From positions 35,712,001 to 35,776,000 of the forward strand of contig CP086569.2 of NCBI GenBank assembly GCA_009914755.4: a stretch of DNA of 64,000 nucleotides, given 5' to 3'. Of the stretch, positions 1,496 to 40,710 are shown in pieces. Position 1 is the first letter of the stretch, and each line of letters starts with the position of its first letter. The DNA is from the human T2T-CHM13v2.0 reference genome, Homo sapiens. The notes beneath the pieces are model-generated. The model made no database searches and was not told the DNA's origin. It worked only from the letters and a program-made list of their open reading frames with translations. A program made the position numbers and the translations under genes.

Positions 1496-1815
<320 letters not shown>

Positions 1816-2395: not shown

Positions 2396-2419
2396 TATAA
2401 TAATATACAGTATCATATA

Positions 2420-7256: not shown

Positions 7257-9676
<2,420 letters not shown>

Positions 9677-10959
9677 TATAATATATATAACCTGTATATA
9701 ATATTGTTTTACATCCTGCATCTTATATATATTGTGTAAAATATAATAATTGATAATATATAAGTTTTATATTTATACAATATGACATATAGTATATATT
9801 ATAATTTATGACATATATAATATATGTTATATATAATATATAGAATATATTATACGGTTAATATACGTATTAAATATAAATTATACATTATATATATTAT
9901 ATATAATATATCTGTTATATATAATACCCATTATAGATAATATATATATTATGTCTATGTTTTATATAGTATAAACCAACATATAATAATATATAATTGT
10001 ATATATAAAATGTGACATATAATATATATTATATTTTATGACATTTGTAACATGTATTATATATTATATATATTACGTTGTATGTATAATACCTATATTA
10101 AATATATATTATATGACGATGTTATTAATTACATGTCACATATGTTATATATTATATATTTTACATGGAATATACCGGTTACATATAATATATACTATGT
10201 TACCTATAATGTATAATTTATTACATGTAATATAATGAATGTCATATATTATATATAATTTATAATATACAATATGTGGAATGTGATATATATAACATAT
10301 ATGATATATGATATAAAGTATATGATATATAACATACAATATATGATACGTAATATATATGGTATACAATATATATTTTATGATATGTATTCTATATGTT
10401 TTATATTCTGTTATATATAACTATTTGAAATTATATATAACTGTATAATATTTTATGTAAATATGTAATATAATATATATAACTATATAATATATTATAT
10501 ATAATTATATTTTATGTTATATATACTTTTATAACATAATTTACATAAAATATAATAATATAAAATATATTATATTATTTCATATTACATAATATATATT
10601 CAATATCACCCAATATAAGTAACATACATACTATTAAAATATAGATTATATTATGTTATATTAAATATCATATATATCATGTATCCTATATTCTATAATA
10701 TATATTATGCATTATATAATATGCATGTTGTCTATTATGTGATATATATAACTATATATATAATTGTATTATTATACATATAACTATATAAACATGTAAT
10801 TCTATATATTTTCATTTATAATATATAGAATTATATAATCATAATTATTTATATTCTATAAAAAATTATATCATTATATAAATTATAATGAGATGGGAAA
10901 TAGGGCACACACAAACATACGTATACATTATGTATATAATAATATACAGTATCATATAT
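9677..10959. repeat. DYZ2 unit 5, internally deleted (about 1,283 bp; lacks the Alu and most of the non-AT segment)
   Basis: AT-rich sequence ending ...atcattatataaattataat at about 10889 runs directly into gagatgggaaatagggcacac. In the other units that word lies about 1,136 bp further on. There is no poly-T/Alu between 9677 and 10959. Confidence 0.8.
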
Positions 10960-15764
<4,805 letters not shown>

Positions 15765-16627
15765 TATAATATATGTAACATATATATATAATACTGTTTT
15801 ACATCCTGCAGTTATATTATATATATTATATGTATTATAATAACTGGTAATGTATAAGTATTATATTTATACACTGTGACATATAATAATTATATTTTAT
15901 GCCGTATATAATATATATTATATATCATATACCAAATATATTATATGGTTAATATACGTATTAAATATATAATATACATTATAAATATTATATCTACGTT
16001 ATATATAACATTCACTATAGTTAATATATATATTATATCTAGCTTATATATAATATAAAATAACATATAATAATATATAACTGTATATATAAAATATGAC
16101 ATATAATATATATTATATTTTATGACATATATATGATATGTATTATATATTATATATAATATGTTGTAAGTATAATACATGTATTAAATATATATTATAT
16201 GTCTATGTTATTAATTATATGTAATATATGTTATATATTACATATTTGATATGGAATACACATGTTACATAGAATATATTCTATGTTACATATAACGTAG
16301 AATTTATTATGTGTAATATAATGTATGGCATATATTATAAATTCCTTATAATATACAATATGTGGAATGTGATATATATAACTTGTAATATATGATATAT
16401 GATATACAATATATGTTATATAACATACAATATATGATACATAATATATATGGTATAGAATATATATTTTATGTTATATATTATATATGTTTTATATTTT
16501 ATTATATATAAATATTTAAAATTATATATAACTGTATAATGTTATACGTAAATATATAATATACTACATATAACCATATATTATGTTATATAAAATTTTA
16601 TTACATACTTTCCATAATATATCATAT
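15765..16627. repeat. DYZ2 unit 8, partial (about 863 bp of AT-rich sequence), truncated at the DYZ1 junction
   Basis: The unit follows the diverged AT-rich pattern up to ...ccataatatatcatatgg. DYZ1 sequence begins immediately after. Confidence 0.8.
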
Positions 16628-16635
16628 GGACTCCT
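16620..16635. other. DYZ2-to-DYZ1 satellite block junction
   Basis: AT-rich ...ccataatatatcatatg is followed at 16628 by ggactcctttggaatggtctagtatgcaatgcaatcgactggcagggaat. That word recurs once per DYZ1 unit (for example at 22951 and 30044). Possible microhomology atgg at the join. Confidence 0.85.
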
Positions 16636-19406
16636 TTGGAATGGTCTAGTATGCAATGCAATCGACTGGCAGGGAATTAAAAGGAATGCAATCGAATGGA
16701 TTGCACAGGAATGCAATGGACTCGAATAGATTGGAAACAGAATGCAAAGGAATGGAATGGAATAGTATGGAATGGAATGGAAAGGAATGGAGTGGAATAG
16801 ACTAGAGTAGAATGGAATTTACTCGAAAGCAATGGACTGGAATAGAACTTTCTTGAATGGGCTGGAATCAAACGGAATGGAATGCTGTGCAATCAAATAG
16901 AATGAAAGAGAATCAAATCCAATCGAATGGATTGGAAAGGAATTGACTGAAATGGAATGGACTAGAATGGAAGGCAAAGGAATGGAATCTATAGGAATGG
17001 ACTGTAATGGAATGGAATGGAAGGGATTGGAATGGAATCGAATGGAATGGACTGCAATAGAAAGGATTCGAATGGAATGAAAAAGAATTGAATGGAATAG
17101 AACAGAATGGAATCAAATCGAATGAAATGGAATGAAATAGAAAGGATTCGAATGGAATGCAATCGAACGGAATGGAATCGAACGGAATGGAATAAAATGG
17201 AAGAAAACTGGCAAGAAATGGAATCGAAATGAATGGAGTGTTATGGAACGGACTCAAAAGGAATTGAATGTAATAGAATGGAGTGGAGTGGACTCGAATA
17301 TAATGGACTGGAATGGAATGAAATCACATGGAATGGGAACGAATGGAATGGAATGGAAAGGAATGGAATCGAATGGAAAGGAATCGAATGGAAGGGAATG
17401 AAATTGAATCAACAGGAATGGAAGGGAATAGAATAGACGGTAATGGAATGGACTCGAATAGAATGGACACGAATGCTCAAATTGAATGGACTCGAATGGA
17501 ATGGAAACGAAAGGAATGTCATCGAATGTAATTGAATCGATTGGAATGAAATCGCATAGAATGGAGTGGAATCAAATGGAATTGAGTCGAAAGGAAAGGA
17601 AGCGAATGGACTGAAATGAAATGGAATGGAATTGAATGGAAAGTAATGCAATGGAATAGAATGGAACGAAATTTCACGGAATGGAATCAAACTGAATGGA
17701 ATCAAATCAATGGAATCAAATCAAATGGAATGGAAAGGAATTGAATGGAGTAGATGGGATTGGATGGGATTGGAATGAAATGTACTGGAAAGAACTCGAA
17801 TTTCATGAAACGGAATGGAATGAATTGGAACGGAATGGACTCGAATGGAATGGAATGTCATGGAATGGCATCAAATGGAATGGCATCAAATGGAATGGAA
17901 TCGAATGCAATGGAATGCTATGGAATGGAATGGAATGCATTGGAATGGAATGTCCTCTAATGGAATGGATTCGAGTGGAATGGAATCGAATATAATGGAG
18001 TCGAATGAAATGGAATTGAAAGGAATGGGACCGAATACAATGGAATATACTGGAATGTAATGTAATGAACTCGAATGTAATTGACTGCAATGGAATGTAC
18101 ATGAATGGAATGTAATCGAATGGAAAGTAATCCAATGGAATAGAATCTAATGCAATAAAATCGACTCAAATAGAATAGAATGTAATGGAATGGAGTGCAG
18201 TGCAATGGAATGGAATGGAATGGAATGCAGTGGAATGGAATGGAATGGAATGCAATGGAATGGAATGTATTAGAATGTAATGAACATTAATGGAATGTAC
18301 TCGAATGGATTCGACTGGAATGGAATGTTCTGGAAGTTTATGGACTCCAATGGAATAGATTCGAAAGGAATGGAATCGAACGGAATGGAATCTAATGGAA
18401 TGGAATTAAATGGAAATGAATCAAATTGAATAGCACGGAATTGAATTGAATGGAATAGAATGCAATGTAATCTAATGAAACAGAAAGGAAAGGAATGGAA
18501 TGGAATGGAATGGGCTGGAATGGAATGGAATCGAAACGAATGGAATGGAATCGAACTAAAGAGACTGGAATGGAATGCACTGGAATGGAAGGGAGTGTAA
18601 TGGAAGGTTCTCGAAAAAAATGGAATCGAATGGAATGGAATTGAATGGAACGGAATAGAGTCGAATGGAATTGAATGGAATGGAATGGACTAGAGTGAAA
18701 TGGAATCGAACCACAAGGAATGGACAGGAATAGAATGGTCTCGAATTGAATGGAATCGTATGGAATGGCATCAAACGGAATGGAATGGACAGCCACGGAA
18801 TGGAATGCACTCGAATGCAATGGAGTCGAAACTAATGGACTGGAATAGAATGGACTCGACTGGTACGGACTCCAATGGAATGGAATCGAATGGAAGGGAA
18901 TCGAACAGAATGGACTCGAAGGGAAAAGACTGCAATGGAAAGGTCTCGAATGGAATGGAAATTAATGGAATGGAATGGAATCGAATGAAGTGGAGTCAAA
19001 AGGAATGGAATCGAATGGCAAGAAATCGAATGTAATGGAATCGCAAGGAATTGATGTGAACGGAACGGAATGGAATGGAATCCAAAGGAATGGAATAGAA
19101 TGGAATGGAATCAAATGGAAAGGACTCGAATGGAAATCACTCGAATAGAATGCAATTTCATAAAATAGGATCAAATGTAATGCAATGGAATGGAAAGGAA
19201 TCGAAACGAAAGGAATGGAGACAGATGGAATGGAATGTAACAGAGAGCAATGGTATAGAATGGAATGGAATCATCTGGAATGGAATTGAATGGAATGCAA
19301 TAACATGAAATGGAATGGAATGGAATGGAATGCCCTTGAATTAAATGGACTGGAATGGAATGGACTCGAACAGAGTGTAATGGAAAGTGTTGAAATAGAA
19401 TGGAAT
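16628..19406. repeat. DYZ1 unit 1, shortened (2,779 bp)
   Basis: Anchor-to-anchor distance is 2,779 against about 3,544 for the next unit. Internal anchors place a deletion of about 680 bp between 17951 and 18607, and one of about 85 bp between 16628 and 17951. Confidence 0.75.
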
Positions 19407-22400
19407 GGACTCGTTTGGAATGGTCTAGTATGCAATGCAATCGACTGGCAGGGAATCAAAAGGAATGTAATCGAATGGATTGGACTGGAATGCAATGGAC
19501 TCGAATAGATTGGAAACGGAATGCAAAGGAATGGAATGGAATAGTATGGAATGGAATGGAAAGGAATGGAGTGGAATAGACTAGAGTGGAATGGAATGGA
19601 CTCAAAAGCAATGGACTGGAATGGAACTTTCTTGAATGGACTGGAATCAAACGGAATGGAATGCAATGCAATCAAATGGCATGGAATAAAATAGAATGAA
19701 AGAGAATCAAATGGAATTGAATGGAATGGAATCGAATGGATTGGAAAGGAATAGAATGGAATGGAATGGAATTGACTCAAATGGAATGGACTAGAATGGA
19801 ATGGATTCGAATGGAAGGCAAAGGAATGGAATCTATTGGAATGGACTGTAATGGAATGGAATGGAAGGGATTGGAATGGACTCGAATGGAATGGACTGCA
19901 ATAGAAAGGATTCGAATGGAATGAAAAAGAATTGAATGGAATAGAACAGAATGGAATCAAATCGAATGAAATGGAATGGAATAGAAAGGAATGGAATGAA
20001 ATGGAATGGAAAGGATTCGAATGGAATGCAATCGAATGGAATGGAATCGAACGGAATGGAATAAAATGGAAGAAAACTGGCAAGAAATGGAATCGAAATG
20101 AATGGAGTGTTATGGAACGGACTCAAAAGGAATTGAATGTAATAGAATTGAGTGAAGTGGACTCGAATATAATGGACTGGAATGGAATGAAATCACATGG
20201 AATGGGAACGAATGGAATGGAATGGAAAGGAATGGAATCGAATGGAAAGGAATGGAATGGAAGGGAATGAAACTGAATCAACAGGAATGGAAGGGAGTAG
20301 AATAGACGGTAATGGAATGGACTCGAATAGAATGGACACGAATGCACAAATTGAATGGACTCGAATGGAATGGAAACGAAAGGAATGTCATCGAATGGAA
20401 TTGAATCGATTGGAATGAAATCGCATAGAATGGAGTGGAATCAAATGGAATTGAATCGAAAGGAAAGGAAGCGAATGGACTGAAATGGAATGGAATGGAA
20501 TGGAAAGTAATGCAATGGAATAGAATGGAACGAAATTTCACGGAATGGAATCAAACTGAATAGAATCAAATCAATGGAATATAATCAAATGGAATGGAAA
20601 GGAATTGAATGGAGTAGATTGGATTGGATGGGATTGGAATGAAATGGAATGGAAAGGACTCGAATTTCATGAAACGGAATGGAATGAATTGGAACGGAAT
20701 GGACTCGAATGGAATGGAATGTCATGGAATTGCATCAAATGGAATGGCATCAAAGGGAATGGAATCGAATGCAATGGAATGCTATGGAATGGAATGGAAT
20801 GCATTGGAATGGAATGTCCTCTAATGGAATGGATTCGAGTGGAATGGAATCGAATATAATGGAGTCGAATGAAATGGAATTGAAAGGAATGGGATCGAAT
20901 ACAATGGAATATACTGGAATGTAACGTAATGAACTCGAATGTAATTGACTGGAATGGAATGTACACGAATGGAATGTAATCGAATGGAAAGTAATCCAAT
21001 GGAATAGAATCTAATGCAATAAAATCGACTCAAATAGAATAGAATGCAATGGAATGGAGTGCAGTGCAATGGAATGGAATGGAATGGAATGCAATGGAAT
21101 GGAATGGAATGGAATGGAATGCAATGGGATGGAATGGTATGGAATGGATAGTAATGGACTGGAGTGAAATGGACTGGAAAGGAATGGACTCAAATTGAAA
21201 GGTCTCGAAAGGAATGGAGTCAAATGGAATGGTCTGGAATGGAATGAACACGAATGTAATGCAATCCAATAGAATGGAATCGAATGGCATGGAATATAAA
21301 GAAATGGAATCGAAGAGAATGGAAACAAATGGAATGGAATTGAATGGAATGGAATTGAATGGAATGGGAACGAATGGAGTGAAATTGTATGCAGTAGAAG
21401 AGAATAGAATGGAATGCAAGCGAAAGGAAAGGAATGGATTGGAATGGAATGGAATTCATTGGAATGGAAGGGAATGTAGTGTAATGGACAGGCCTGGAAT
21501 AAAGTGGAATGCTACGGTCTCGAATGGAATAAAAATGTATGGAATGGAATGCAATGAAACGGAATCGAATGTCATAGAATGTAATGGAATGCAAAAAAAT
21601 GGAATCCAAAATCATTGACTGGAAAGGCTGGGTGTCGAAAGGAATTGACTCCAATGGAATGGAATCGAATGGAATGGAAGTGAATAGAATCGAACTAAAT
21701 CGAATGGAATGGAATTGATAGGAACGGAATGGAAAGGAATGCAATGATTTGGCATGGAATGGAATCGAATGGCATCGAATGGAATGGAATGGAATGCAAT
21801 GGAATGGAATATATTAGAATGTAATGAACTTTAATGGAATGTACTCGAATGGATTCGACTGGAATGGAATGTTCTGGAAGTGAATGGACTCCAATGGAAT
21901 GGATTCGAAAGGAATAGAATCGTACGGAATGGAATCTAATGGAATGGAATTAAATGGAAATGAATCAAATTGAATAGCACGGAATTGAATTGAATGGAAT
22001 GGAATGCAATGGAATCTAATGAAACGGAAAGGAAAGGAATGGAATGGAATGGAATGGGCTGGAATGGAAAGGAATCGAAACGAATGGAATGGAATCGAAC
22101 TGAAGAGACTGGAATGGAATGCACTGGAATGGAAGGGAGTGTAATGGAAGGTTCTCGAAAAAAATGGAATCGAATGGAATGGAATTGAATGGAACGGAAT
22201 AGAGTCGAATGGAATTGAATGGAATGGAATGGACTAGAGTGAAATGGAATCGAACCACAAGGAATGGACAGGAATAGAATGGTCTCGAATTGAATGGAAT
22301 CGTATGGAATGGCATCAAACGGAATGGAATGGACAGCCACGGAATGGAATGCACTCGAATGCAATGGAGTCGAAACTAATGGACTGGAATAGAATGGACT

Positions 22401-22950
22401 CGACTGGTACGGACTCCAATGGAATGGAATCGAATGCAAGGGAATCGAACGGAATGGACTCGAAGGGAAAAGACTGCAATGGAAAGGTCTCGAATGGAAT
22501 GGAAATTAATGGAATGGATTGGAATCGAATGAAATGGAGTCAAAAGGAATGGAATCGAATGGCAAGAAATCAAATGTAATGGAATCGCAAGGAATTGATG
22601 TGAACGGAACGGAATGGAATGGAATCCAAAGGAATGGAATAGAATGGAATGGAATCGAATGGAAAGGACTCGAATGGAAATCACTCGAATAGAATGCAAT
22701 TTAATAAAATAGGATCAAATGTAATGGAATGGAATGGAAAGGAATCGAAACGAAAGGAATGGAGACAGATGGAATGGAATGGAACAGAGAGCAATGGTAT
22801 AGAATGGAATGGAATCATCTGGAATGGAATTGAATGGAATGGAATAACATGAAATGGAATGGAATGGAATGGAATGCCCTTGAATTAAATGGACTGGAAT
22901 GGAATGGACTCGAACAGAGTGGAATGGAAAGTGTTGAAATATAATGGAAT
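19407..22950. repeat. DYZ1 unit 2 (3,544 bp), variant A
   Basis: Anchor spacing. Near-identical to unit 4 at a 7,093-bp offset: the ORF-track entries at 20605, 20667, 21214 and 21936 recur at 27698, 27760, 28307 and 29029 with identical translations. Confidence 0.85.
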
Positions 22951-25900
22951 GGACTCCTTTGGAATGGTCTAGTGTGCAATGCAATCGACTGGCAGGGAAT
23001 CAAAAGGAATGTAATCGAATGGATTGGACTGGAATGCAATGGATTCGAATAGATTGGAAACGGAATGCAAAGGAATGGAATGGAATAGTATGGAATGGAA
23101 TGGAAAGTAATGGAGTGGAATAGACTAGAGTGGAATGGAATGGACTGGAAAGCAATGGACTGGAATGGAACTTTCTTGAATGGAGTGGAATCAAACGGAA
23201 TGGAATGCACTGCAATCAAATGGCATGGAATAAAATAGAATGAAAGAGAATCAAACGGAATTGAATCGAATGGAATCGAATGGATTGGAAAGGAATAGAA
23301 TGGAATGGAATGGAATTGACTCAAATGGAATGGACTAGAATGGAATGGATTCGAATGGAAGGCAAAGGAATGGAATCTATTGGAATGGACTGTAATGGAA
23401 TGGAATGGAAGGGATTGGAATGGACTCGAATGGAATGGACTGCAATAGAAAGGATTCGAATGGAATGAAAAAGAATTGAATGGAATAGAACAGAATGGAA
23501 TCAAATCGAATGAAATTGAATGGAATAGTAAGGAATGGAATGAAATGGAATGGAAAGGATTCGAATGGAATGCAATCGAATGGAATGCAATCGAATGGAA
23601 TGGAATCGAACGGAATGGAATAAAATGGAAGAAAACTGGCAAGAAATGGAATCGAAATGAATGGAGTGTTATGGAACGGACTCAAAAGGAATTGAATGTA
23701 ATAGAATGGAGTGGAGTGGACTCGAATATAATGGACTGGAATGGAATGAAATCACATGGAATGGGAACGAATGGAATGGAATGGAAAGGAATGGAATCGA
23801 ATGGAAAGGAATCGAATGGAAGGGAATGAAATTGAATCAACAGGAATGGAAGGGAATAGAATAGACGGTAATGGAATGGACTCGAATAGAATGGACACGA
23901 ATGCTCACATTGAATGGACTCGAGTGGAATGGAAACGAAACGAATGTCATCGAATGGAATTGAATCGATTGGAATGAAATCGCATAGAATGGACTGGAAT
24001 CAAATGGAATTGAGTCGAAAGGAAAGGAAGCGAATGGACTGAAATGAAATGGAATGGAATTGAATGGAAAGTAATGCAATGGAATAGAATGGAACGAAAT
24101 TTCACGGAATGGAATCAAACTGAATGGAATCAAATCAATGGAATATAATCAAATGGAATGGAAAGGAATTGAATGGAGTAGATGGGACTGGATGGGATTG
24201 GAATGAAATGTACTGGAAAGGACTCGAATTTCATGAAACGGAATGGAATGAATTGGAACGGAATGGACTCGATTGGAATGGAATGTCATGGAATGGCATC
24301 AAATGGAATGGAATCGAATGCAATGGAATGCTATGGAATGGAATGGAATGCATTGGAATGGAATGTCCTCTAATGGAATGGATTCGAGTGGAATGGAATC
24401 GAATATAATGGAGTCGAATGAAATGGAATTGAAAGGAATGGGATCGAATACAATGGAATATACTGGAATGTAACGTAATGAACTCGAATGTAATTGACTG
24501 GAATGGAATGTACATGAATGGAATGTAATCGAATGGAAAGTAATCCAATGGAATAGAATCTAATGCAATAAAATCGACTCAAATAGAATAGAATGCAATG
24601 GAATGGAGTGCAGTGCAATGGAATGGAAGGGAATGGAATGCAATGGAATGGAATGTAATGGAATGGAATGGAATGGGATGGAATGGTATGGAATGGATAG
24701 TAATGGACTGGAGTGAAATGGACTGGAAAGGAATGGACTCAAATTGAAAGGGCTCGAAAGGAATGCAGTCAAATGGAATGATCTGGAATGGAATGAACAC
24801 GAATGTAATGCAATCCAATAGAATGGAATCGAATGGCATGGAATATAAAGAAATGGAATCGAAGAGAATGGAAACAAATGGAATGGAATTGAATGGAATG
24901 GAATTGAATGGAATGAGAATGAATGGAGTGAAATTGTATGCAGTAGAAGAGAATAGAATGGAATGCAAGCGAAAGGAAAGGAATGGATTGGAATGGAATG
25001 GAATTCATTGGAATGGAAGGGAATGTAGTGTAATGGACAGGCCTGGAATAAAGTGGAATGCTACGGTCTCGAATGGAATAAAAATGTATGGAATGGAATG
25101 CAATGAAACGGAATCGAATGTCATAGAATGTAATGGAATGCAAAAAAATGGAATCCAAAATCATTGACTGGAAAGGCTGGGTGTCGAAAGGAATTGACTC
25201 CAATGGAATGGAATCGAATGGAATGGAAGTGAATAGAATCGAACTAAATCGAATGGAATGGAATTGATAGGAACGGAATGGAAAGGAATGCAATGATTTG
25301 GCATGGAATGGAATCGAATGGCATCGAATGGAATGGAATGGAATGCAATGGAATGGAATGTATTAGAATGTAATGAACTTTAATGGAATGTACTCGAATG
25401 GATTCGACTGGAATGGAATGTTCTGGAAGTGAATGGACTCCAATGGAATGGATTCGAAAGGAATGGAATCGTACGGAATGGAATCTAATGGAATGGAATT
25501 AAATGGAAATGAATCAAATTGAATAGCACGGAACTGAATTGAATGGAATCGAATGCAATGGAATCTAATGAAACGGAAAGGAAAGGAATGGAATGGAATG
25601 GAATGGGCTGGAATGGAATGGAATCGAAACAAATGGAATGGAATCGAACTGAAGAGACTGGAATGGAATGCACTGGAATGGAAGGGAGTGTAATGGAAGG
25701 TTCTCGAAAAAAATGGAATCGAATGGAATGGAATTGAATGGAACGGAATAGAGTCGAATGGAATTGAATGGAATGGAATGGACTAGAGTGAAATGGAATC
25801 GAACCACAAGGAATGGACAGGAATAGAATGGTCTCGAATTGAATGGAATCGTATGGAATGGCATCAAACGGAATGGAATGGACAGCCACGGAATGGAATG

Positions 25901-26499
25901 CACTCGAATGCAATGGAGTCGAAACTAATGGACTGGAATAGAATGGACTCGACTGGTACGGACTCCAATGGAATGGAATCGAATGGAAGGGAATCGAACG
26001 GAATGGACTCGAAGGCAAAAGACTGCAATGGAAAGGTGTCGAATGGAATGGAAATTAATGGAATGGAATGGAATCGAATGAAATGGAGTCAAAAGGAATG
26101 GAATCGAATGGCAAGAAATCGAATGTAATGGAATCGCAAGGAATTGATGTGAACGGAACGGAATGGAATGGAATCCAAAGGAATGGAATAGAATGGAATG
26201 GAATCGAATGGAAAGGACTCGAATGGAAATCACTCGAATAGAATGCAATTTAATAAAATAGGATCAAATGTAATGGAATGGAATGGAAAGGAATCGAAAC
26301 GAAAGGAATGGAGACAGATGGAATGGAATGGAACAGAGAGCAATGGTATAGAATGGAATGGAATCATCTGGAATGGAATTGAATGGAATGGAATAACATG
26401 AAATGGAATGGAATGGAATGGAATGCCTTTGAATTAAATGGACTGGAATGGAATGGTCTCGAACAGAGTGGAATGGAAAGTATTGGAATAGAATGGAAT
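22951..26499. repeat. DYZ1 unit 3 (3,549 bp), variant B
   Basis: Near-identical to unit 5 at a 7,093-bp offset (the 275-aa ORF at 22815..23642 recurs as 29908..30735; 24124 recurs as 31217). Confidence 0.85.
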
Positions 26500-29400
26500 G
26501 GACTCGTTTGGAATGGTGTAGTATGCAATGCAATCGACTGGCAGGGAATCAAAAGGAATGTAATCGAATGGATTGGACTGGAATGCAATGGACTCGAATA
26601 GATTGGAAACGGAATGCAAAGGAATGGAATGGAATAGTATGGAATGGAATGGAAAGGAATGGAGTGGAATAGACTAGAGTGGAATGGAATGGACTGGAAA
26701 GCAATGGACTGGAATGGAACTTTCTTGAATGGACTGGAATCAAACGGAATGGAATGCAATGCAATCAAATGGCATGGAATAAAATAGAATGAAAGAGAAT
26801 CAAATGGAATTGAATCGAATGGAATCGAATGGATTGGAAAGGAATAGAATGGAATGGAATGGAATTGACTCAAATGGAATGGACTAGAATGGAATGGATT
26901 CGAATGGAAGGCAAAGGAATGGAATCTATTGGAATGGACTGTAATGGAATGGAATGGAAGGGATTGGAATGGACTCGAATGGAATGGACTGCAATAGAAA
27001 GGATTCGAATGGAATGAAAAAGAATTGAATGGAATAGAACAGAATGGAATCAAATCGAATGAAATGGAATGGAATAGAAAGGAATGGAATGAAATGGAAT
27101 GGAAAGGATTTGAATGGAATGCAATCGAATGGAATGGAATCGAACGGAAAGGAATAAAATGGAAGAAAACTGGCAAGAAATGGAATCGAAATGAATGGAG
27201 TGTTATGGAACGGACTCAAAAGGAATTGAATGTAATAGAATTGAGTGAAGTGGACTCGAATATAATGGACTGGAATGGAATGAAATCACATGGAATGGGA
27301 ACGAATGGAATGGAATGGAAAGGAATGGAATCGAATGGAAAGGAATGGAATGGAAGGGAATGAAACTGAATCAACAGGAATGGAAGGGAGTAGAATAGAC
27401 GGTAATGGAATGGACTCGAATAGAATGGACACGAATGCACAAATTGAATGGACTCGAATGGAATGGAAACGAAAGGAATGTCATCGAATGGAATTGAATC
27501 GATTGGAATGAAATCGCATAGAATGGAGTGGAATCAAATGGAATTGAATCGAAAGGAAAGGAAGCGAATGGACTGAAATGGAATGGAATGGAATGGAAAG
27601 TAATGCAATGGAATAGAATGGAACGAAATTTCACGGAATGGAATCAAACTGAATAGAATCAAATCAATGGAATATAATCAAATGGAATGGAAAGGAATTG
27701 AATGGAGTAGATTGGATTGGATGGGATTGGAATGAAATGGAATGGAAAGGACTCGAATTTCATGAAACGGAATGGAATGAATTGGAACGGAATGGACTCG
27801 AATGGAATGGAATGTCATGGAATTGCATCAAATGGAATGGCATCAAAGGGAATGGAATCGAATGCAATGGAATGCTATGGAATGGAATGGAATGCATTGG
27901 AATGGAATGTCCTCTAATGGAATGGATTCGAGTGGAATGGAATCGAATATAATGGAGTCGAATGAAATGGAATTGAAAGGAATGGGATCGAATACAATGG
28001 AATATACTGGAATGTAACGTAATGAACTCGAATGTAATTGACTGGAATGGAATGTACACGAATGGAATGTAATCGAATGGAAAGTAATCCAATGGAATAG
28101 AATCTAATGCAATAAAATCGACTCAAATAGAATAGAATGCAATGGAATGGAGTGCAGTGCAATGGAATGGAATGGAATGGAATGCAATGGAATGGAATGG
28201 AATGGAATGGAATGCAATGGGATGGAATGGTATGGAATGGATAGTAATGGACTGGAGTGAAATGGACTGGAAAGGAATGGACTCAAATTGAAAGGTCTCG
28301 AAAGGAATGGAGTCAAATGGAATGGTCTGGAATGGAATGAACACGAATGTAATGCAATCCAATAGAATGGAATCGAATGGCATGGAATATAAAGAAATGG
28401 AATCGAAGAGAATGGAAACAAATGGAATGGAATTGAATGGAATGGAATTGAATGGAATGGGAACGAATGGAGTGAAATTGTATGCAGTAGAAGAGAATAG
28501 AATGGAATGCAAGCGAAAGGAAAGGAATGGATTGGAATGGAATGGAATTCATTGGAATGGAAGGGAATGTAGTGTAATGGACAGGCCTGGAATAAAGTGG
28601 AATGCTACGGTCTCGAATGGAATAAAAATGTATGGAATGGAATGCAATGAAACGGAATCGAATGTCATAGAATGTAATGGAATGCAAAAAAATGGAATCC
28701 AAAATCATTGACTGGAAAGGCTGGGTGTCGAAAGGAATTGACTCCAATGGAATGGAATCGAATGGAATGGAAGTGAATAGAATCGAACTAAATCGAATGG
28801 AATGGAATTGATAGGAACGGAATGGAAAGGAATGCAATGATTTGGCATGGAATGGAATCGAATGGCATCGAATGGAATGGAATGGAATGCAATGGAATGG
28901 AATATATTAGAATGTAATGAACTTTAATGGAATGTACTCGAATGGATTCGACTGGAATGGAATGTTCTGGAAGTGAATGGACTCCAATGGAATGGATTCG
29001 AAAGGAATAGAATCGTACGGAATGGAATCTAATGGAATGGAATTAAATGGAAATGAATCAAATTGAATAGCACGGAATTGAATTGAATGGAATGGAATGC
29101 AATGGAATCTAATGAAACGGAAAGGAAAGGAATGGAATGGAATGGAATGGGCTGGAATGGAAAGGAATCGAAACGAATGGAATGGAATCGAACTGAAGAG
29201 ACTGGAATGGAATGCACTGGAATGGAAGGGAGTGTAATGGAAGGTTCTCGAAAAAAATGGAATCGAATGGAATGGAATTGAATGGAACGGAATAGAGTCG
29301 AATGGAATTGAATGGAATGGAATGGACTAGAGTGAAATGGAATCGAACCACAAGGAATGGACAGGAATAGAATGGTCTCGAATTGAATGGAATCGTATGG

Positions 29401-30043
29401 AATGGCATCAAACGGAATGGAATGGACAGCCACGGAATGGAATGCACTCGAATGCAATGGAGTCGAAACTAATGGACTGGAATAGAATGGACTCGACTGG
29501 TACGGACTCCAATGGAATGGAATCGAATGCAAGGGAATCGAACGGAATGGACTCGAAGGGAAAAGACTGCAATGGAAAGGTCTCGAATGGAATGGAAATT
29601 AATGGAATGGATTGGAATCGAATGAAATGGAGTCAAAAGGAATGGAATCGAATGGCAAGAAATCAAATGTAATGGAATCGCAAGGAATTGATGTGAACGG
29701 AACGGAATGGAATGGAATCCAAAGGAATGGAATAGAATGGAATGGAATCGAATGGAAAGGACTCGAATGGAAATCACTCGAATAGAATGCAATTTAATAA
29801 AATAGGATCAAATGTAATGGAATGGAATGGAAAGGAATCGAAATGAAAGGAATGGAGACAGATGGAATGGAATGGAACAGAGAGCAATGGTATAGAATGG
29901 AATGGAATCATCTGGAATGGAATTGAATGGAATGGAATAACATGAAATGGAATGGAATGGAATGGAATGCCCTTGAATTAAATGGACTGGAATGGAATGG
30001 ACTCGAACAGAGTGGAATGGAAAGTGTTGAAATATAATGGAAT
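26500..30043. repeat. DYZ1 unit 4 (3,544 bp), variant A
   Basis: See unit 2. Confidence 0.85.
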
Positions 30044-33000
30044 GGACTCCTTTGGAATGGTCTAGTATGCAATGCAATCGACTGGCAGGGAATCAAAAGG
30101 AATGTAATCGAATGGATTGGACTGGAATGCAATGGATTCGAATAGATTGGAAACGGAATGCAAAGGAATGGAATGGAATAGTATGGAATGGAATGGAAAG
30201 TAATGGAGTGGAATAGACTAGAGTGGAATGGAATGGACTGGAAAGCAATGGACTGGAATGGAACTTTCTTGAATGGAGTGGAATCAAACGGAATGGAATG
30301 CACTGCAATCAAATGGCATGGAATAAAATAGAATGAAAGAGAATCAAACGGAATTGAATCGAATGGAATCGAATGGATTGGAAAGGAATAGAATGGAATG
30401 GAATGGAATTGACTCAAATGGAATGGACTAGAATGGAATGGATTCGAATGGAAGGCAAAGGAATGGAATCTATTGGAATGGACTGTAATGGAATGGAATG
30501 GAAGGGATTGGAATGGACTCGAATGGAATGGACTGCAATAGAAAGGATTCGAATGGAATGAAAAAGAATTGAATGGAATAGAACAGAATGGAATCAAATC
30601 GAATGAAATTGAATGGAATAGTAAGGAATGGAATGAAATGGAATGGAAAGGATTCGAATGGAATGCAATCGAATGGAATGCAATCGAATGGAATGGAATC
30701 GAACGGAATGGAATAAAATGGAAGAAAACTGGCAAGAAATGGAATCGAAATGAATGGAGTGTTATGGAACGGACTCAAAAGGAATTGAATGTAATAGAAT
30801 GGAGTGGAGTGGACTCGAATATAATGGACTGGAATGGAATGAAATCACATGGAATGGGAACGAATGGAATGGAATGGAAAGGAATGGAATCGAATGGAAA
30901 GGAATCGAATGGAAGGGAATGAAATTGAATCAACAGGAATGGAAGGGAATAGAATAGACGGTAATGGAATGGACTCGAATAGAATGGACACGAATGCTCA
31001 CATTGAATGGACTCGAGTGGAATGGAAACGAAACGAATGTCATCGAATGGAATTGAATCGATTGGAATGAAATCGCATAGAATGGACTGGAATCAAATGG
31101 AATTGAGTCGAAAGGAAAGGAAGCGAATGGACTGAAATGAAATGGAATGGAATTGAATGGAAAGTAATGCAATGGAATAGAATGGAACGAAATTTCACGG
31201 AATGGAATCAAACTGAATGGAATCAAATCAATGGAATATAATCAAATGGAATGGAAAGGAATTGAATGGAGTAGATGGGACTGGATGGGATTGGAATGAA
31301 ATGTACTGGAAAGGACTCGAATTTCATGAAACGGAATGGAATGAATTGGAACGGAATGGACTCGATTGGAATGGAATGTCATGGAATGGCATCAAATGGA
31401 ATGGAATCGAATGCAATGGAATGCTATGGAATGGAATGGAATGCATTGGAATGGAATGTCCTCTAATGGAATGGATTCGAGTGGAATGGAATCGAATATA
31501 ATGGAGTCGAATGAAATGGAATTGAAAGGAATGGGATCGAATACAATGGAATATACTGGAATGTAACGTAATGAACTCGAATGTAATTGACTGGAATGGA
31601 ATGTACATGAATGGAATGTAATCGAATGGAAAGTAATCCAATGGAATAGAATCTAATGCAATAAAATCGACTCAAATAGAATAGAATGGAATGGAATGGA
31701 GTGCAGTGCAATGGAATGGAAGGGAATGGAATGCAATGGAATGGAATGTAATGGAATGGAATGGAATGGGATGGAATGGTATGGAATGGATAGTAATGGA
31801 CTGGAGTGAAATGGACTGGAAAGGAATGGACTCAAATTGAAAGGGCTCGAAAGGAATGCAGTCAAATGGAATGATCTGGAATGGAATGAACACGAATGTA
31901 ATGCAATCCAATAGAATGGAATCGAATGGCATGGAATATAAAGAAATGGAATCGAAGAGAATGGAAACAAATGGAATGGAATTGAATGGAATGGAATTGA
32001 ATGGAATGAGAATGAATGGAGTGAAATTGTATGCAGTAGAAGAGAATAGAATGGAATGCAAGCGAAAGGAAAGGAATGGATTGGAATGGAATGGAATTCA
32101 TTGGAATGGAAGGGAATGTAGTGTAATGGACAGGCCTGGAATAAAGTGGAATGCTACGGTCTCGAATGGAATAAAAATGTATGGAATGGAATGCAATGAA
32201 ACGGAATCGAATGTCATAGAATGTAATGGAATGCAAAAAAATGGAATCCAAAATCATTGACTGGAAAGGCTGGGTGTCGAAAGGAATTGACTCCAATGGA
32301 ATGGAATCGAATGGAATGGAAGTGAATAGAATCGAACTAAATCGAATGGAATGGAATTGATAGGAACGGAATGGAAAGGAATGCAATGATTTGGCATGGA
32401 ATGGAATCGAATGGCATCGAATGGAATGGAATGGAATGCAATGGAATGGAATGTATTAGAATGTAATGAACTTTAATGGAATGTACTCGAATGGATTCGA
32501 CTGGAATGGAATGTTCTGGAAGTGAATGGACTCCAATGGAATGGATTCGAAAGGAATGGAATCGTACGGAATGGAATCTAATGGAATGGAATTAAATGGA
32601 AATGAATCAAATTGAATAGCACGGAACTGAATTGAATGGAATCGAATGCAATGGAATCTAATGAAACGGAAAGGAAAGGAATGGAATGGAATGGAATGGG
32701 CTGGAATGGAATGGAATCGAACTGAAGAGACTGGAATGGAATGCACTGGAATGGAAGGGAGTGTAATGGAAGGTTCTCGAAAAAAATGGAATCGAATGGA
32801 ATGGAATTGAATGGAACGGAATAGAGTCGAATGGAATTGAATGGAATGGAATGGACTAGAGTGAAATGGAATCGAACCACAAGGAATGGACAGGAATAGA
32901 ATGGTCTCGAATTGAATGGAATCGTATGGAATGGCATCAAACGGAATGGAATGGACAGCCACGGAATGGAATGCACTCGAATGCAATGGAGTCGAAACTA

Positions 33001-33572
33001 ATGGACTGGAATAGAATGGACTCGACTGGTACGGACTCCAATGGAATGGAATCGAATGGAAGGGAATCGAACGGAATGGACTCGAAGGCAAAAGACTGCA
33101 ATGGAAAGGTGTCGAATGGAATGGAAATTAATGGAATGGAATGGAATCGAATGAAATGGAGTCAAAAGGAATGGAATCGAATGGCAAGAAATCGAATGTA
33201 ATGGAATCGCAAGGAATTGATGTGAACGGAACGGAATGGAATGGAATCCAAAGGAATGGAATAGAATGGAATGGAATCGAATGGAAAGGACTCGAATGGA
33301 AATCACTCGAATAGAATGCAATTTAATAAAATAGGATCAAATGTAATGGAATGGAATGGAAAGGAATCGAAACGAAAGGAATGGAGACAGATGGAATGGA
33401 ATGGAACAGAGAGCAATGGTATAGAATGGAATGGAATCATCTGGAATGGAATTGAATGGAATGGAATAACATGAAATGGAATGGAATGGAATGGAATGCC
33501 TTTGAATTAAATGGACTGGAATGGAATGGTCTCGAACAGAGTGGAATGGAAAGTGTTGGAATAGAATGGAAT
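30044..33572. repeat. DYZ1 unit 5 (3,529 bp), variant B with a ~20-bp deletion relative to unit 3
   Basis: See unit 3. The ORF 25485..26018 (177 aa) recurs as 32456..33091 (211 aa), consistent with a small indel. Confidence 0.8.
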
Positions 33573-36500
33573 GGACTCGTTTGGAATGGTGTAGTATGCA
33601 ATGCAATCGACTGGCAGGGAATCAAAAGGAATGTAATCGAATGGATTGGACTGGAATGCAATGGACTCGAATAGATTGGAAACGGAATGCAAAGGAATGG
33701 AATGGAATAGTATGGAATGGAATGGAAAGGAATGGAGTGGAATAGACTAGAGTGGAATGGAATGGACTGGAAAGCAATGGACTGGAATGGAACTTTCTTG
33801 AATGGACTGGAATCAAACGGAATGGAATGCAATGCAATCAAATGGCATGGAATAAAATAGAATGAAAGAGAATCAAATGGAATTGAATCGAATGGAATCG
33901 AATGGATTGGAAAGGAATAGAATGGAATGGAATGGAATTGACTCAAATGGAATGGACTAGAATGGAATGGATTCGAATGGAAGGCAAAGGAATGGAATCT
34001 ATTGGAATGGACTGTAATGGAATGGAATGGAAGGGATTGGAATGGACTCGAATGGAATGGACTGCAATAGAAAGGATTCGAATGGAATGAAAAAGAATTG
34101 AATGGAATAGAACAGAATGGAATCAAATCGAATGAAATGGAATGGAATAGAAAGGAATGGAATGAAATGGAATGGAAAGGATTCGAATGGAATGCAATCG
34201 AATGGAATGGAATCGAACGGAATGGAATAAAATGGAAGAAAACTGGCAAGAAATGGAATCGAAATGAATGGAGTGTTATGGATCGGACTCAAAAGGAATT
34301 GAATGTAATAGAATGGAGTGGAGTGGACTCGAATATAATGGACTGGAATGGAATGAAATCACATGGAATGGGAACGAATGGAATGGAATGGAAAGGAATG
34401 GAATCGAATGGAAAGGAATCGAATGGAAGGGAATGAAATTGAATCAACAGGAATGGAAGGGAGTAGAATAGACGGTAATGGAATGGACTCGAATAGAATG
34501 GACACGAATGCTCAAATTGAATGGACTCGAATGGAATGGAAACGAAAGGAATGTCATCGAATGGAATTGAATCGGTTGGAATGAAATCGCATAGAATGGA
34601 GTGGAATCAAATGGAATTGAATCGAAAGGAAAGGAAGCGAATGGACTGAAATGAAATGGAATGGAATTGAATGGAATGTAATGCAATGGAATAGAATGGA
34701 ACGAAATTTCACGGAATGGAATCAAACTGAATGGAATCAAATCAATGGAATATAATCAAATGGAATGGAAAGGAATTGAATGGAGTAGATTGGGTTGGAT
34801 GGGATTGGAATGAAATGGAATGGAAAGGACTCGAATTTCATGAAACGGAATGGAATGAATTGGAACGGAATGGACTCGAATGGAATGGAATGACATGGAA
34901 TGGCAAGAAATGGAATGGCATCAAAGGGAATGGAATCGAATGCAATGGAATGCTATGGAATGGAATGGAATGCATTGGAATGGAATGTCCTCTAATGGAA
35001 TGGATTCGAGTGGAATGGAATCTAATATAATGGAGTCGAATGAAATGCAATTGAAAGGAATGGGATCGAATACAATGGAATATACTGGAATGTAATGTAA
35101 AGAACTCGAATGTAATTGAATGGAAAGGAATGTACATGAATGGAATGTAATCGAATGGAAACTAATCCAATGGAATAGTATCTAATGTAATAAAATCGAC
35201 TCAGATAGAGTAGAATGTAATGGAATGGAGTGTAGTGCAATGGAATGGAATGGAATGGAATGCAATGGAATGGAAAGGAATGGAATGGAATGGAATGGAA
35301 TGGGATGGAATGGTATGGAATGGATAGTAATGGACTGGAGTGAAATGGACTGGAAAGGAATGGACTCAAATTGAAAGGTCTCGAAAGGAATGGAGTCAAA
35401 AGGAATGGTCTGGAATGGAATGAACACGAATGTAATGCAATCCAATAGAATGGAGTCGAATGGCATGGAATATAAAGAAATGGAATCGAAGAGAATGGAA
35501 ACAAATGGAATGGAATTGAATGGAATGGAATTGAATGGAATGGGAAGGAATGGAGTGAAATTGTATGCAGTAGAAGAGAATAGAATGGAATGCAAGCAAA
35601 AGGAAAGGAATGGATTGGAATGGAATGGAATTCATTGGAATGGAAGGGAATGTAGTGTAATGGACAGGCCTGGAATAAAGTGGAATGCTACGGTCTCGAA
35701 TGGAATAAAAATGTATGGAATGGAATGCAATGAAACGGAATTGAATGTCATAGAATGTAATGGAATACAAAAAAATGGAATCCAAAATCATTGACTGGAA
35801 AGGCTGGGTGTCGAAAGGAATTGACTCCAATGGAATGGAATCGAATGGAATGGAAGTGAATAGAATCGAACTAAATCGAATGGAATGGAATTGATAGGAA
35901 CGGAATGGAAAGGAATGCAATGATTTGGCATGGAATGGAATCGAATGGCATCGAATGGAATGGAATGGAATGCAATGGAATGGAATGTATTAGAATGTAA
36001 TGAACTTTAATGGAATGTACTCGAATGGATTCGACTGGAATGGAATGTTCTGGAAGTGAATGGACTCCAATGGAATGGATTCAAAAGGAATGGAATCGTA
36101 CGGAATGGAATCTAATGGAATGGAATTAAATGGAAATGAATCAAATTGAATAGCACGGAATTGAATTGAATGGAATCGAATGCAATGGAATCTAATGAAA
36201 CGGAAAGGAAAGGAATGGAATGGAATGGAATGGGCTGGAATGGAAAGGAATCGAAACGAATGGAATGGAATCGAACTGAAGAGACTGGAATGGAATGCAC
36301 TGGAATGGAAGGGAGTGTAATGGAAGGTTGTCGAAAAAAATGGAATCGAATGGAATGGAATTGAATGGAACGGAATAGAGTCGAATGGAATTGAATGGAA
36401 TGGAATGGACTAGAGTGAAATGGAATCGAACCACAAGGAATGGACAGGAATAGAATGGTCTCGAATTGAATGGAATCGTATGGAATGGCATCAAACGGAA

Positions 36501-37141
36501 TGGAATGGACAGCCACGGAATGGAATGCACTCGAATGCAATGGAGTCGAAACTAATGGACTGGAATAGAATGGACTCGACTGGTACGGACTCCAATGGAA
36601 TGGAATCGAATGGAAGGGAATCGAACGGAAGGGAATCGAACGGAATGGACTCGAAGGGAAAAGACTGCAATGGAAAGGTCTCGAATGGAATGGAAATTAA
36701 TGGAATGGAATGGAATCGAATGAAATGGAGTCAAAAGTAATGGAATCGAATGGCAAGAAATCGAATGTAATGGAATCGCAAGGAATTGATGTGAACGGAA
36801 CGGAATGGAATGGAATCCAAAGGAATGGAATAGAATGGAATGGAATCGAATGGAAGGGACTCGAATGGAAATCACTCGAATAGAATGCAATTTAATAAAA
36901 TAGGATCAAATGTAATGGAATGGAATGGAAAGGAATCGAAACGAAAGGAATGGAGACAGATGGAATGGAATGGAACAGAGAGCAATGGTATAGAATGGAA
37001 TGGAATCATCTGGAATGGAATTGAATGGAATGGAATAACATGAAATGGAATGGAATGGAATGGAATGCCTTTGAATTAAATGGACTGGAATGGAATGGTC
37101 TCGAACAGAGTGGAATGGAAAGTGTTGGAATAGAATGGAAT
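33573..37141. repeat. DYZ1 unit 6 (3,569 bp), variant C
   Basis: Near-identical to unit 7 at a 3,569-bp offset (160-aa ORF 35022..35504 recurs as 38591..39073). Contains a 15-bp tandem duplication gaagggaatcgaacg at about 36611-36650. Confidence 0.85.
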
Positions 37142-40100: not shown

Positions 40101-40710
40101 CGAATGCAATGGAGTCGAAACTAATGGACTGGAATAGAATGGACTCGACTCGTACGGACTCCAATGGAATGGAATCGAATGGAAGGGAATCGAACGGAAG
40201 GGAATCGAACGGAATGGACTCGAAGGGAAAAGACTGCAATGGAAAGGTCTCGAATGGAATGGAAATTAATGGAATGGAATGGAATCGAATGAAATGGAGT
40301 CAAAAGGAATGGAATCGAATGGCAAGAAATCGAATGTAATGGAATCGCAAGGAATTGATGTGAACGGAACGGAATGGAATGGAATCCAAAGGAATGGAAT
40401 AGAATGGAATGGAATCGAATGGAAAGGACTCGAATGGAAATCACTCGAATAGAATGCAATTTAATAAAATAGGATCAAATGTAATGGAATGGAATGGAAA
40501 GGAATCGAAACGAAAGGAATGGAGACAGATGGAATGGAATGGAACAGAGAGCAATGGTATAGAATGGAATGGAATCATCTGGAATGGAATTGAATGGAAT
40601 GGAATAATATGAAATGGAATGGAATGGAATGGAATGTCCTTGAATTAAATGGACTGGAATGGAATGGACTCGAACAGAGTGGAATGGAAAGTGTTGAAAT
40701 AGAATGGAAT
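37142..40710. repeat. DYZ1 unit 7 (3,569 bp), variant C
   Basis: See unit 6. The same 15-bp duplication is present at about 40181-40220. Confidence 0.85.

What the first reader, a model, noticed from the sequence alone, without database searches (positions are those of the whole stretch)
19407..33572. 7.09-kb dimeric super-repeat (A-B-A-B) built from two diverged 3.5-kb DYZ1 units
Units 2 and 4, and units 3 and 5, are essentially identical at an offset of 7,093 bp. Many ORF-track translations recur letter for letter at +7093, including the 275-aa entry at 22815 and 29908. Adjacent units (2 versus 3) differ at many positions.

The repeat hierarchy here is therefore at least three-tiered: the 5-bp pentamer, the ~3.55-kb unit, and the ~7.09-kb dimer. 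The second dimer carries a ~20-bp deletion (3,529 against 3,549 bp), so the duplication is recent but not an artefact of identical copies.
Basis: seen in the sequence. Interest (0 to 1): 0.55.

Follow-up and report, generated by a model that had tools for sequence, protein, structure and literature searches.

The report
Two-unit tandem duplication inside DYZ1
Two neighbouring 3.5-kb units of the human Y-chromosome satellite DYZ1 were copied once as a 7.09-kb block, an ordinary product of out-of-register exchange in satellite DNA and not a new level of repeat organisation.

Summary
U2 (19407-22950) and U4 differ at 7 bases with no gaps. U3 and U5 differ at 3 bases plus one 20-bp deletion. Adjacent units differ at 54-57 bases plus 3-4 indels.

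The sequence is DYZ1/HSat3A6 beside a DYZ2/HSat1B array. Published DYZ1 primers, a published HSat3A6 24-mer, HaeIII/EcoRI spacing, GC and CpG density all fit.

The "dimeric super-repeat tier" reading is not supported. There are only two copies. Across the array, lag-2 identity (mean 98.46%) is no higher than lag-1 (98.60%). The same window also holds one-unit near-duplicates (U6/U7, U8/U9) and a 14,063-bp four-unit duplication.

A three-way comparison shows U4 is a clean hybrid: U6-like up to 26816 and U2-like from 27210. The near-identical tract is one period long and abuts its copy. This marks a single out-of-register (two-unit) exchange or template switch. It is about 28-fold younger than the divergence between neighbouring units.

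This process is already described for Yq12, so interest is low.

The parts
20018..27110 (.). Copy 1 of the duplicated 7,093-bp block (tail of U2, all of U3, head of U4)
   Evidence: At offset +7,093, x=20058-27110 shows only 4 substitutions and one 20-bp indel. Difference density returns to background on both sides. The block boundary can lie anywhere within the crossover interval. It is drawn here at 27110/27111.
27111..34183 (.). Copy 2 of the duplicated block (tail of U4, all of U5, head of U6); 7,073 bp because of a 20-bp deletion
   Evidence: The head of U6 (33573-34183) is identical to the head of U4 (26500-27110).
19407..22950 (-). DYZ1 unit U2 (type A), 3,544 bp; the canonical TTCCA orientation is the minus strand
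   Evidence: Published DYZ1 primers C, D and F lie at their published coordinates, counted along the minus strand from the HaeIII site; primers E, G and B lie within 10-25 bp of theirs.
22951..26499 (-). DYZ1 unit U3 (type B), 3,549 bp
   Evidence: It differs from U2 by 56 substitutions and 3 indels.
26500..30043 (-). DYZ1 unit U4, a hybrid unit with a U6-type head and a U2-type tail
   Evidence: Three-way comparison. U4 equals U6 at the 4 informative sites 26518-26816. U4 equals U2 at every later informative site but one, across about 50 substitutions and 4 indels from 27210 on. The exception is 29844, which is private to U4.
30044..33572 (-). DYZ1 unit U5 (copy of U3), 3,529 bp
   Evidence: 3 mismatches and one 20-bp gap against U3.
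26817..27209 (.). Crossover or template-switch interval of the duplication; it holds two substitutions private to U4 (27111 C>T at a CpG, 27150 T>A)
   Evidence: Neither private allele is found in any other unit of the window or in 36 external DYZ1 copies.
25612..25631 (.). 20-bp segment present in U3 and in all other complete units (U2-U13) but deleted in U5 (at 32704/32705); one copy of a 20-bp direct repeat that shares 17 bp (AATGGAATGGAATCGAA) with its neighbour
16628..64000 (-). DYZ1 (HSat3A6) array containing the duplication: truncated edge unit U1, complete units U2-U13 and partial unit U14
1..16627 (.). Flanking DYZ2 (HSat1B) array: units of about 2,420 bp, AT-rich, each with an Alu-like piece of about 290 bp

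Best explanation
The window is a DYZ2-to-DYZ1 junction of the human Yq12 heterochromatin. Within the DYZ1 array, a single out-of-register event shifted by two units created a tandem duplication of 7,093 bp. The event was most likely an unequal sister-chromatid exchange. A replication template switch would give the same product.

The ancestral order was U1 - A - B - C. The product is U1 - A - B - (C-head/A-tail hybrid) - B' - C. Since the event, the copies have acquired a few point substitutions. U5 also lost 20 bp by slippage between direct repeats.

What is shown: the duplication, the hybrid junction unit, the crossover interval and the polarity of the later changes. What is inferred: the molecular mechanism (sister-chromatid exchange or template switch), and the age.
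For: Identity as DYZ1:
- Units of 3,499-3,569 bp repeat head to tail.
- There is one HaeIII and one EcoRI site per unit, with fragments of 3,513-3,569 bp. Hallast et al. report 3,569 bp as the commonest HaeIII fragment.
- GC is 38.6% with one CpG per 34.6 bp. The published figures are 38% and one per 35 bp.
- DYZ1 primers C, D and F of PMC3925983 Table 5 hit once per unit, on the minus strand, at the published coordinates (1668, 2564, 1669). Primers E, G and B hit within 10-25 bp of theirs.
- The HSat3A6-specific 24-mer of PMC4022460 occurs 16 times.

The left flank fits DYZ2:
- The period is 2,416-2,420 bp, GC is 22.7% and there is one CpG per 154 bp. The published figures are 24% and one per 150 bp.
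- Each unit holds an Alu-like piece at 77% identity.

Tandem duplication:
- The near-identity tract at +7,093 is 7,053 bp long between its flanking mismatches. That is one period, and it directly abuts its copy.
- U4 is a clean two-parent recombinant.

Plausibility from the literature:
- Rhie et al. describe iterative tandem duplications in Yq12. [quoted passage not shown]
- Hallast et al. report localized expansions and contractions of DYZ1 and DYZ2 units.
- Porubsky et al. saw about one de novo structural variant per Y transmission, each covering whole DYZ2 repeat unit(s) (2,416-4,839 bp).

Age:
- 4 substitutions in 7,053 bp, at the pedigree Yq12 rate of 3.86e-7 per bp per generation, gives about 735 generations (95% Poisson range 200-1,900).
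- This is about 28-fold younger than the U2-U3 divergence.
Against: - Only four informative sites define the U6-like head of U4, and two of them are alleles private to U2. The left bound of the crossover interval therefore rests on few sites.
- Sequence alone cannot separate sister-chromatid exchange from a replication template switch.
- No reads are available to exclude an assembly-made duplication.
- No second Y haplotype lacking the duplication could be examined.
- The age depends on a satellite mutation rate that includes gene-conversion-like events. With a euchromatic Y rate (my own knowledge, about 0.8e-9 per bp per year) it would be several hundred thousand years.
Confidence: 0.85

Rival explanations
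1. Gene conversion without a change in copy number. Four units already stood here, and a tract of about 7 kb from U2-U3-(U4 head) overwrote U4-U5-(U6 head).
For: Conversion-like events are frequent in Yq12. In one pedigree study, 29% of de novo SNVs matched non-orthologous Yq12 sites. In another, 17% of events were consistent with gene conversion.
Against: The donor tract would have to be almost exactly one period long (7,053-7,486 bp allowed by the informative sites). It would also have to end exactly where the acceptor tract begins. That is automatic for a tandem duplication and a coincidence for conversion.
Confidence: 0.06
2. Assembly artefact: a false expansion of a satellite array by the assembler.
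For: Yq12 is among the hardest regions to assemble, and the literature reports flagged errors there. The copies are 99.86% identical.
Against: Several of these are plain derived changes in one copy. The junction unit is a clean hybrid of two real neighbouring types. The window also holds other duplications at lags 1 and 4 with graded divergence.
Confidence: 0.05
3. A true dimeric higher-order repeat (A-B)n, a maintained third level of periodicity in DYZ1.
For: Locally, identity at 7.09 kb (99.86%) far exceeds identity at 3.5 kb (98.4%).
Against: There are only two copies. U1 and U6 onward are not A or B type. Mean lag-2 identity across the array is 98.46%, against 98.60% at lag 1. The other recent duplications in the window have periods of 1 and 4 units.
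Confidence: 0.03

Closest known systems
DYZ1 / HSat3A6 satellite of human Yq12 (3.56-kb HaeIII/EcoRI unit built from TTCCA pentamers)
   Same: Unit length, pentamer make-up, restriction sites, published primer sites at or near their published coordinates, the subfamily-specific 24-mer, GC and CpG density, and adjacency to DYZ2/HSat1B all match.
   Different: Nothing in kind. This stretch is the first 47 kb of one array next to a DYZ2 block, with a deletion-bearing edge unit.
Local expansions and tandem duplications in Yq12 attributed to unequal sister-chromatid exchange, slippage or NAHR (Rhie et al. 2023; Hallast et al. 2023; Porubsky et al. 2025)
   Same: The duplication covers a whole number of units, in head-to-tail orientation, with very high identity between copies. 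It lies inside a non-recombining satellite array.
   Different: The published descriptions work at the scale of arrays or megabases, or report de novo DYZ2 events. Here a single two-unit DYZ1 event is resolved to a 393-bp crossover interval with its hybrid unit.
Higher-order repeats of alpha satellite (for example the DYZ3 34-mer)
   Same: Copies of the multimer are much more alike than the monomers inside it.
   Different: A higher-order repeat is iterated many times and defines the periodicity of the array. This block occurs twice only, and the array shows no general lag-2 signal.

Membership tests
DYZ1 / HSat3A6 | Tandem unit of about 3.5-3.6 kb | tested here: met
   There are 12 complete units of 3,499-3,569 bp.
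DYZ1 / HSat3A6 | Unit built from TTCCA/GGAAT pentamers and their derivatives | tested here: met
   There are 124-139 exact GGAAT per 2 kb on the plus strand from 18 kb on and almost none on the other strand. TRF reports periods of 15, 30 and 45.
DYZ1 / HSat3A6 | One HaeIII site per unit giving fragments of about 3.4-3.57 kb (3,564 or 3,569 bp in the literature) | tested here: met
   HaeIII fragments are 3,513-3,569 bp. One unit has an extra site.
DYZ1 / HSat3A6 | Published DYZ1 primers present at published positions | tested here: met
   Primers C, D and F of PMC3925983 hit once per unit at 1668, 2564 and 1669 from the HaeIII cut. Primers E, G and B hit within 10-25 bp of their published positions. 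Primer A was not found with one mismatch or fewer.
DYZ1 / HSat3A6 | HSat3A6-specific 24-mer TCGTTTCGATTCCTTTCCATTCCA | tested here: met
   There are 16 exact hits, all on the minus strand and all inside the array. Shuffled sequence gives 0.
DYZ1 / HSat3A6 | Alternates with DYZ2/HSat1B arrays (unit of about 2.4 kb with an AT-rich part and an old Alu piece) | tested here: met
   Positions 1-16627 have a period of 2,416-2,420 bp and GC of 22.7%. Each unit holds an Alu-like piece of about 290 bp at 77% identity.
DYZ1 / HSat3A6 | Located on the human Y chromosome (male-specific) | not testable with these tools
   No human genome collection is available. Near-identical fragments appear only as stray contigs in metagenomes and bacterial assemblies.
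Higher-order repeat (dimeric) | Multimer copies far more alike than the monomers within a multimer | tested here: met
   Identity is 99.86% between the two blocks and 98.4% between adjacent units.
Higher-order repeat (dimeric) | Multimer iterated many times so that it sets the periodicity of the array | tested here: not met
   There are two copies only. Mean lag-2 identity is 98.46% against 98.60% at lag 1. Lag-1 and lag-4 duplications occur in the same array.
Tandem duplication by out-of-register exchange | Near-identity tract one period long and abutting its copy | tested here: met
   The tract runs from x=20058 to 27110 at +7,093.
Tandem duplication by out-of-register exchange | Hybrid unit at the junction, made of the two parental unit types | tested here: met
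   U4 equals U6 up to 26816 and equals U2 from 27210.
Tandem duplication by out-of-register exchange | Existence of the unduplicated ancestral arrangement in related chromosomes | not testable with these tools
   This needs other human Y assemblies.

The most novel reading that the evidence does not exclude
The A-B block could be a nascent higher-order unit caught just after its first doubling, and present in more copies elsewhere in Yq12 or in other Y lineages. Separately, the two substitutions private to the hybrid unit sit inside the 393-bp crossover interval (Poisson P of about 0.006). They could be a scar of mutagenic repair such as break-induced replication. That would give sequence-level evidence for how DYZ1 units are gained on a non-recombining chromosome.
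Probability: 0.1. Interest if true: 0.35.

Novelty: already known. Interest (0 to 1): 0.12.

Why it matters
It matters little on its own. The finding is a base-resolution example of how Yq12 satellite arrays grow by whole-unit duplications, with the crossover interval and the later mutations identified. The process has already been described from complete Y assemblies and pedigrees.

It has two modest uses. First, the copy-specific variants are markers for this junction. The clearest are the 20-bp deletion and the 27111/27150 pair. Second, if the event is polymorphic among Y haplogroups, it could be dated on the Y tree and used to calibrate satellite turnover.

Tried and rejected
- Ungapped autocorrelation over 16.6-64 kb was smeared by 5-25-bp indels. 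It showed only short periods and weak 3.5-kb peaks. It was replaced by exact 40-mer offsets and gapped unit alignments.
- Rfam at gathering thresholds found nothing.
- An exact 36-mer from the Alu consensus found nothing. A blastn search with an AluY consensus recalled from memory did find a 77%-identical piece in each DYZ2 unit.
- I tried to document the Y1.1/Y1.2 DYZ1 primers I recalled. They match exactly and give a 154-bp product at 21355-21508. Literal searches of the paper library found no source for them. They therefore count only as recalled evidence. The documented primers of PMC3925983 were used for the membership test.
- Scans of metagenome and bacterial-genome collections returned 35 stretches of DNA carrying 36 DYZ1 copies. 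These gave a background: at most about 98.9% identity to any window unit over more than 900 bp, with the ancestral C/T alleles at 27111/27150 in all 36 copies.
- Those external contigs were too short or too noisy for a lag analysis of their own.
- Coding potential of the recurring ORFs was rejected. The pentamer has no stop codon in any frame, and Pfam hits are far below their cut-offs.
Full report
**What the window is**

Positions 1-16627 are AT-rich: GC is 22.7% with one CpG per 154 bp. They repeat with a period of 2,416-2,420 bp. Each unit holds a GC-richer cluster of HaeIII sites and a piece of about 290 bp that is 77% identical to an AluY consensus I recalled from memory.

From 16628 to the end, the plus strand is a GGAAT-rich array with GC of 38.6% and one CpG per 34.6 bp. 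It is made of units of about 3.5 kb.

These figures match the published descriptions of DYZ2/HSat1B and DYZ1/HSat3A6. For DYZ2 the literature gives units of about 2.4 kb, 24% GC, one CpG per 150 bp, and an AT-rich part fused to an old Alu. For DYZ1 it gives units of about 3.5 kb, 38% GC and one CpG per 35 bp. The two alternate in Yq12.

**Membership in DYZ1**

I tested membership directly and did not rely on resemblance.
- There is one HaeIII and one EcoRI site per unit, with fragments of 3,513-3,569 bp. The commonest HaeIII fragment in complete Y assemblies is 3,569 bp.
- Six of the seven DYZ1 primers listed in Table 5 of PMC3925983 hit once per unit on the expected strand.
  - Primers C, D and F fall at their published distances from the HaeIII cut (1668, 2564 and 1669).
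  - Primers E, G and B fall within 10-25 bp of theirs.
  - Primer A was not found with one mismatch or fewer.
- The HSat3A6-specific 24-mer of PMC4022460 occurs 16 times, all on the minus strand.

The canonical TTCCA orientation is the minus strand of the window.

**The observation**

Offset 7,093 is the commonest offset between identical 40-mers in the whole window, with 6,386 of them.

| Pair | Mismatches | Gaps | Identity |
|---|---|---|---|
| U2-U4 | 7 | none | 99.80% |
| U3-U5 | 3 | one 20-bp gap | 99.91% |
| U2-U3, U3-U4, U4-U5 | 54-57 | 3-4 events | 98.4-98.5% |

The rest of the matrix lies between 97.6% and 99.5%. With a background of about 55 differences per unit, 7 or fewer has a Poisson probability of 4e-16.

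External DYZ1 copies fetched from metagenome and bacterial-assembly contigs are never more than about 98.9% identical to a window unit over more than 900 bp.

The unit lengths (3,549 against 3,529 bp) and the two identical 275-aa ORFs are also as described.

**What the ORFs mean**

They mean nothing biologically. A perfect GGAAT repeat reads GMEWN on one strand and IPFHS on the other, with no stop codon in any of the six frames. Long ORFs are therefore automatic. The 275-aa ORF touches only Extensin_1 and a pentapeptide-repeat model in Pfam, far below their curated cut-offs.

**Anatomy of the duplication**

Differences at offset +7,093 are not spread evenly. They are at background density up to x=20057. 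Between x=20058 and 27110 there are only four substitutions (22751, 22974, 24596, 26482) and one 20-bp indel. From 27111 on they return to background. The near-identical tract is therefore one period long and directly abuts its own copy.

A three-way comparison of U2, U4 and U6 shows a clean recombinant.
- U4 carries the U6 allele at the four informative sites 26518, 26696, 26697 and 26816.
- U4 carries the U2 allele at every later informative site but one, across about 50 substitutions and four indels from 27210 on. The exception is 29844, which is private to U4.

This is the product expected from an exchange between copies misaligned by two units. The ancestral order U1-A-B-C becomes U1-A-B-(C head/A tail)-B'-C. 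The crossover lies within 26817-27209.

The duplicated blocks are about 20018-27110 and 27111-34183.

**Changes since the event**

Polarised against the other units:
- U3 gained two private substitutions.
- U5 gained one private substitution and lost 20 bp.
- U4 gained one, a CpG transition at 29844 that destroys one copy of the HSat3A6 24-mer.

The 20-bp loss removes one of two adjacent 20-bp direct repeats that share AATGGAATGGAATCGAA. This is a standard slippage deletion.

Two further substitutions private to U4 lie inside the crossover interval: 27111 C>T at a CpG, and 27150 T>A. Neither allele occurs in any other unit of the window or in 36 external DYZ1 copies. Given the rate elsewhere in the blocks, two in 393 bp has a probability of about 0.006. 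That is suggestive of repair-associated mutation, but it is a single case.

**Age**

Four substitutions in 7,053 bp is 5.7e-4 per site. That is 28 times less than the U2-U3 divergence of 1.6e-2. At the pedigree-based Yq12 rate of 3.86e-7 per bp per generation (PMC12240836), the estimate is about 735 generations, with a 95% Poisson range of 200-1,900. With a euchromatic Y rate it would be of the order of 10^5 years (my own knowledge of that rate). "Recent" is correct in relative terms. The absolute date is soft.

**Is 7.09 kb a tier of the hierarchy?**

No, for four reasons.
- The block occurs twice only.
- To the left is U1 (16628-19406), a 2,779-bp DYZ1 unit carrying 65-, 25- and 680-bp deletions.
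- To the right are U6 and U7, a different type that are themselves 99.5% alike at lag 1. U8 and U9 are likewise 99.5% alike.
- From x=45262 to the end of the window, the sequence matches x+14,063 with 7 differences in 4.7 kb. This is a four-unit duplication that runs off the window.

Mean identity by lag is 98.60% (lag 1), 98.46% (lag 2), 98.16% (lag 3) and 98.18% (lag 4). The array is a patchwork of one-off duplications of 1, 2 and 4 units, not a dimeric higher-order repeat.

**Rival explanations**

*Gene conversion of four pre-existing units.* This would need a donor tract almost exactly one period long that ends where the acceptor begins. That is automatic for a tandem duplication and a coincidence otherwise.

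*Assembly artefact.* This cannot be excluded without reads. It is made unlikely by the copy-specific indel and substitutions, by the clean hybrid unit, and by the graded divergence of the other duplications.

*Exchange or template switch.* Sequence alone cannot tell these two mechanisms apart.

**Comparison with what is known**

- Rhie et al. describe iterative tandem duplications in Yq12. [quoted passage not shown]
- Hallast et al. report localized expansions and contractions of DYZ1 and DYZ2 units, and divergent units at array edges. The edge pattern is seen here too. The DYZ2 units fall from 98.7% to 96% to 90% identity toward the junction, and U1 is deletion-bearing.
- Porubsky et al. observed about one de novo whole-unit structural variant per Y transmission.

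A two-unit DYZ1 duplication is thus an expected, ordinary outcome of a documented process.

**Verdict**

The identification as DYZ1 is confirmed. The "three-tier hierarchy" reading is not supported. The feature is an already-known kind of event, resolved here at base level. Interest is low.

Noticed in passing
45262-49937 and 59325-64000: A second, larger tandem duplication. The sequence matches itself at +14,063 bp (four units) with 7 differences in 4.7 kb, starting at about 45262 and running off the right end of the window. U10 and the partial U14 share every variant shown in the unit alignment.
   Followed up: partly
33573-40710 and 40711-47735: Two one-unit near-duplicates: U6/U7 (18 mismatches, no gaps) and U8/U9 (19 mismatches, one 1-bp gap). 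Both are 99.5% identical and so older than the 7.09-kb event. U13 belongs to the U8/U9 type (99.1-99.2%).
   Followed up: partly
16628-19406: The first DYZ1 unit at the array edge is only 2,779 bp. It is 94-100% identical to U2 in 150-bp windows but carries 65-, 25- and 680-bp deletions. The largest deletion removes the HaeIII and EcoRI sites and the classic 154-bp PCR target. A first BLAST alignment made it look 82% diverged, but that was only a shift in register.
   Followed up: yes
26817-27209 (sites 27111 and 27150): Two substitutions private to the hybrid unit U4 fall inside the 393-bp crossover interval of the duplication. Both are absent from every other unit and from 36 external DYZ1 copies. 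The chance probability is about 0.006. They may be a scar of mutagenic repair, or a coincidence.
   Followed up: partly
1-16627: A DYZ2/HSat1B array of units of about 2,420 bp, each with an Alu-like piece of about 290 bp on the minus strand. Units are 98.6-98.8% alike far from the junction. They fall to 96% and then 90% identity as the DYZ1 boundary is approached.
   Followed up: partly
8986-12683 (AT-rich stretch about 10244-12364): One DYZ2 unit is 3,698 bp instead of 2,420 bp because its AT-rich simple-repeat part has expanded by about 1.3 kb. GC falls to 13% in 10-12 kb.
   Followed up: no
43485, 46997, 50536, 54050, 57549, 61060 (EcoRI); 57672 (HaeIII): Units U8-U13 carry a second EcoRI site that splits the unit into fragments of about 0.75 and 2.76 kb. 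U2-U7 do not have it, so it marks a subtype of unit. U12 has an extra HaeIII site created by a single A>G change.
   Followed up: no
16628-64000: Ungapped self-identity is higher at offset 15 (0.685) than at 5 (0.639). TRF gives a 15-bp consensus ATGGAATGGAATCGA.
   Followed up: no
L026-L035 (for example BMRF01000076.1 Actinomadura cremea and several Streptomyces JCM assemblies): DYZ1 fragments 93-100% identical to the window units sit as short contigs in bacterial and archaeal genome assemblies. They also occur in 25 stretches from metagenome contigs (L001-L025). This is most simply contamination by human male DNA.
   Followed up: partly
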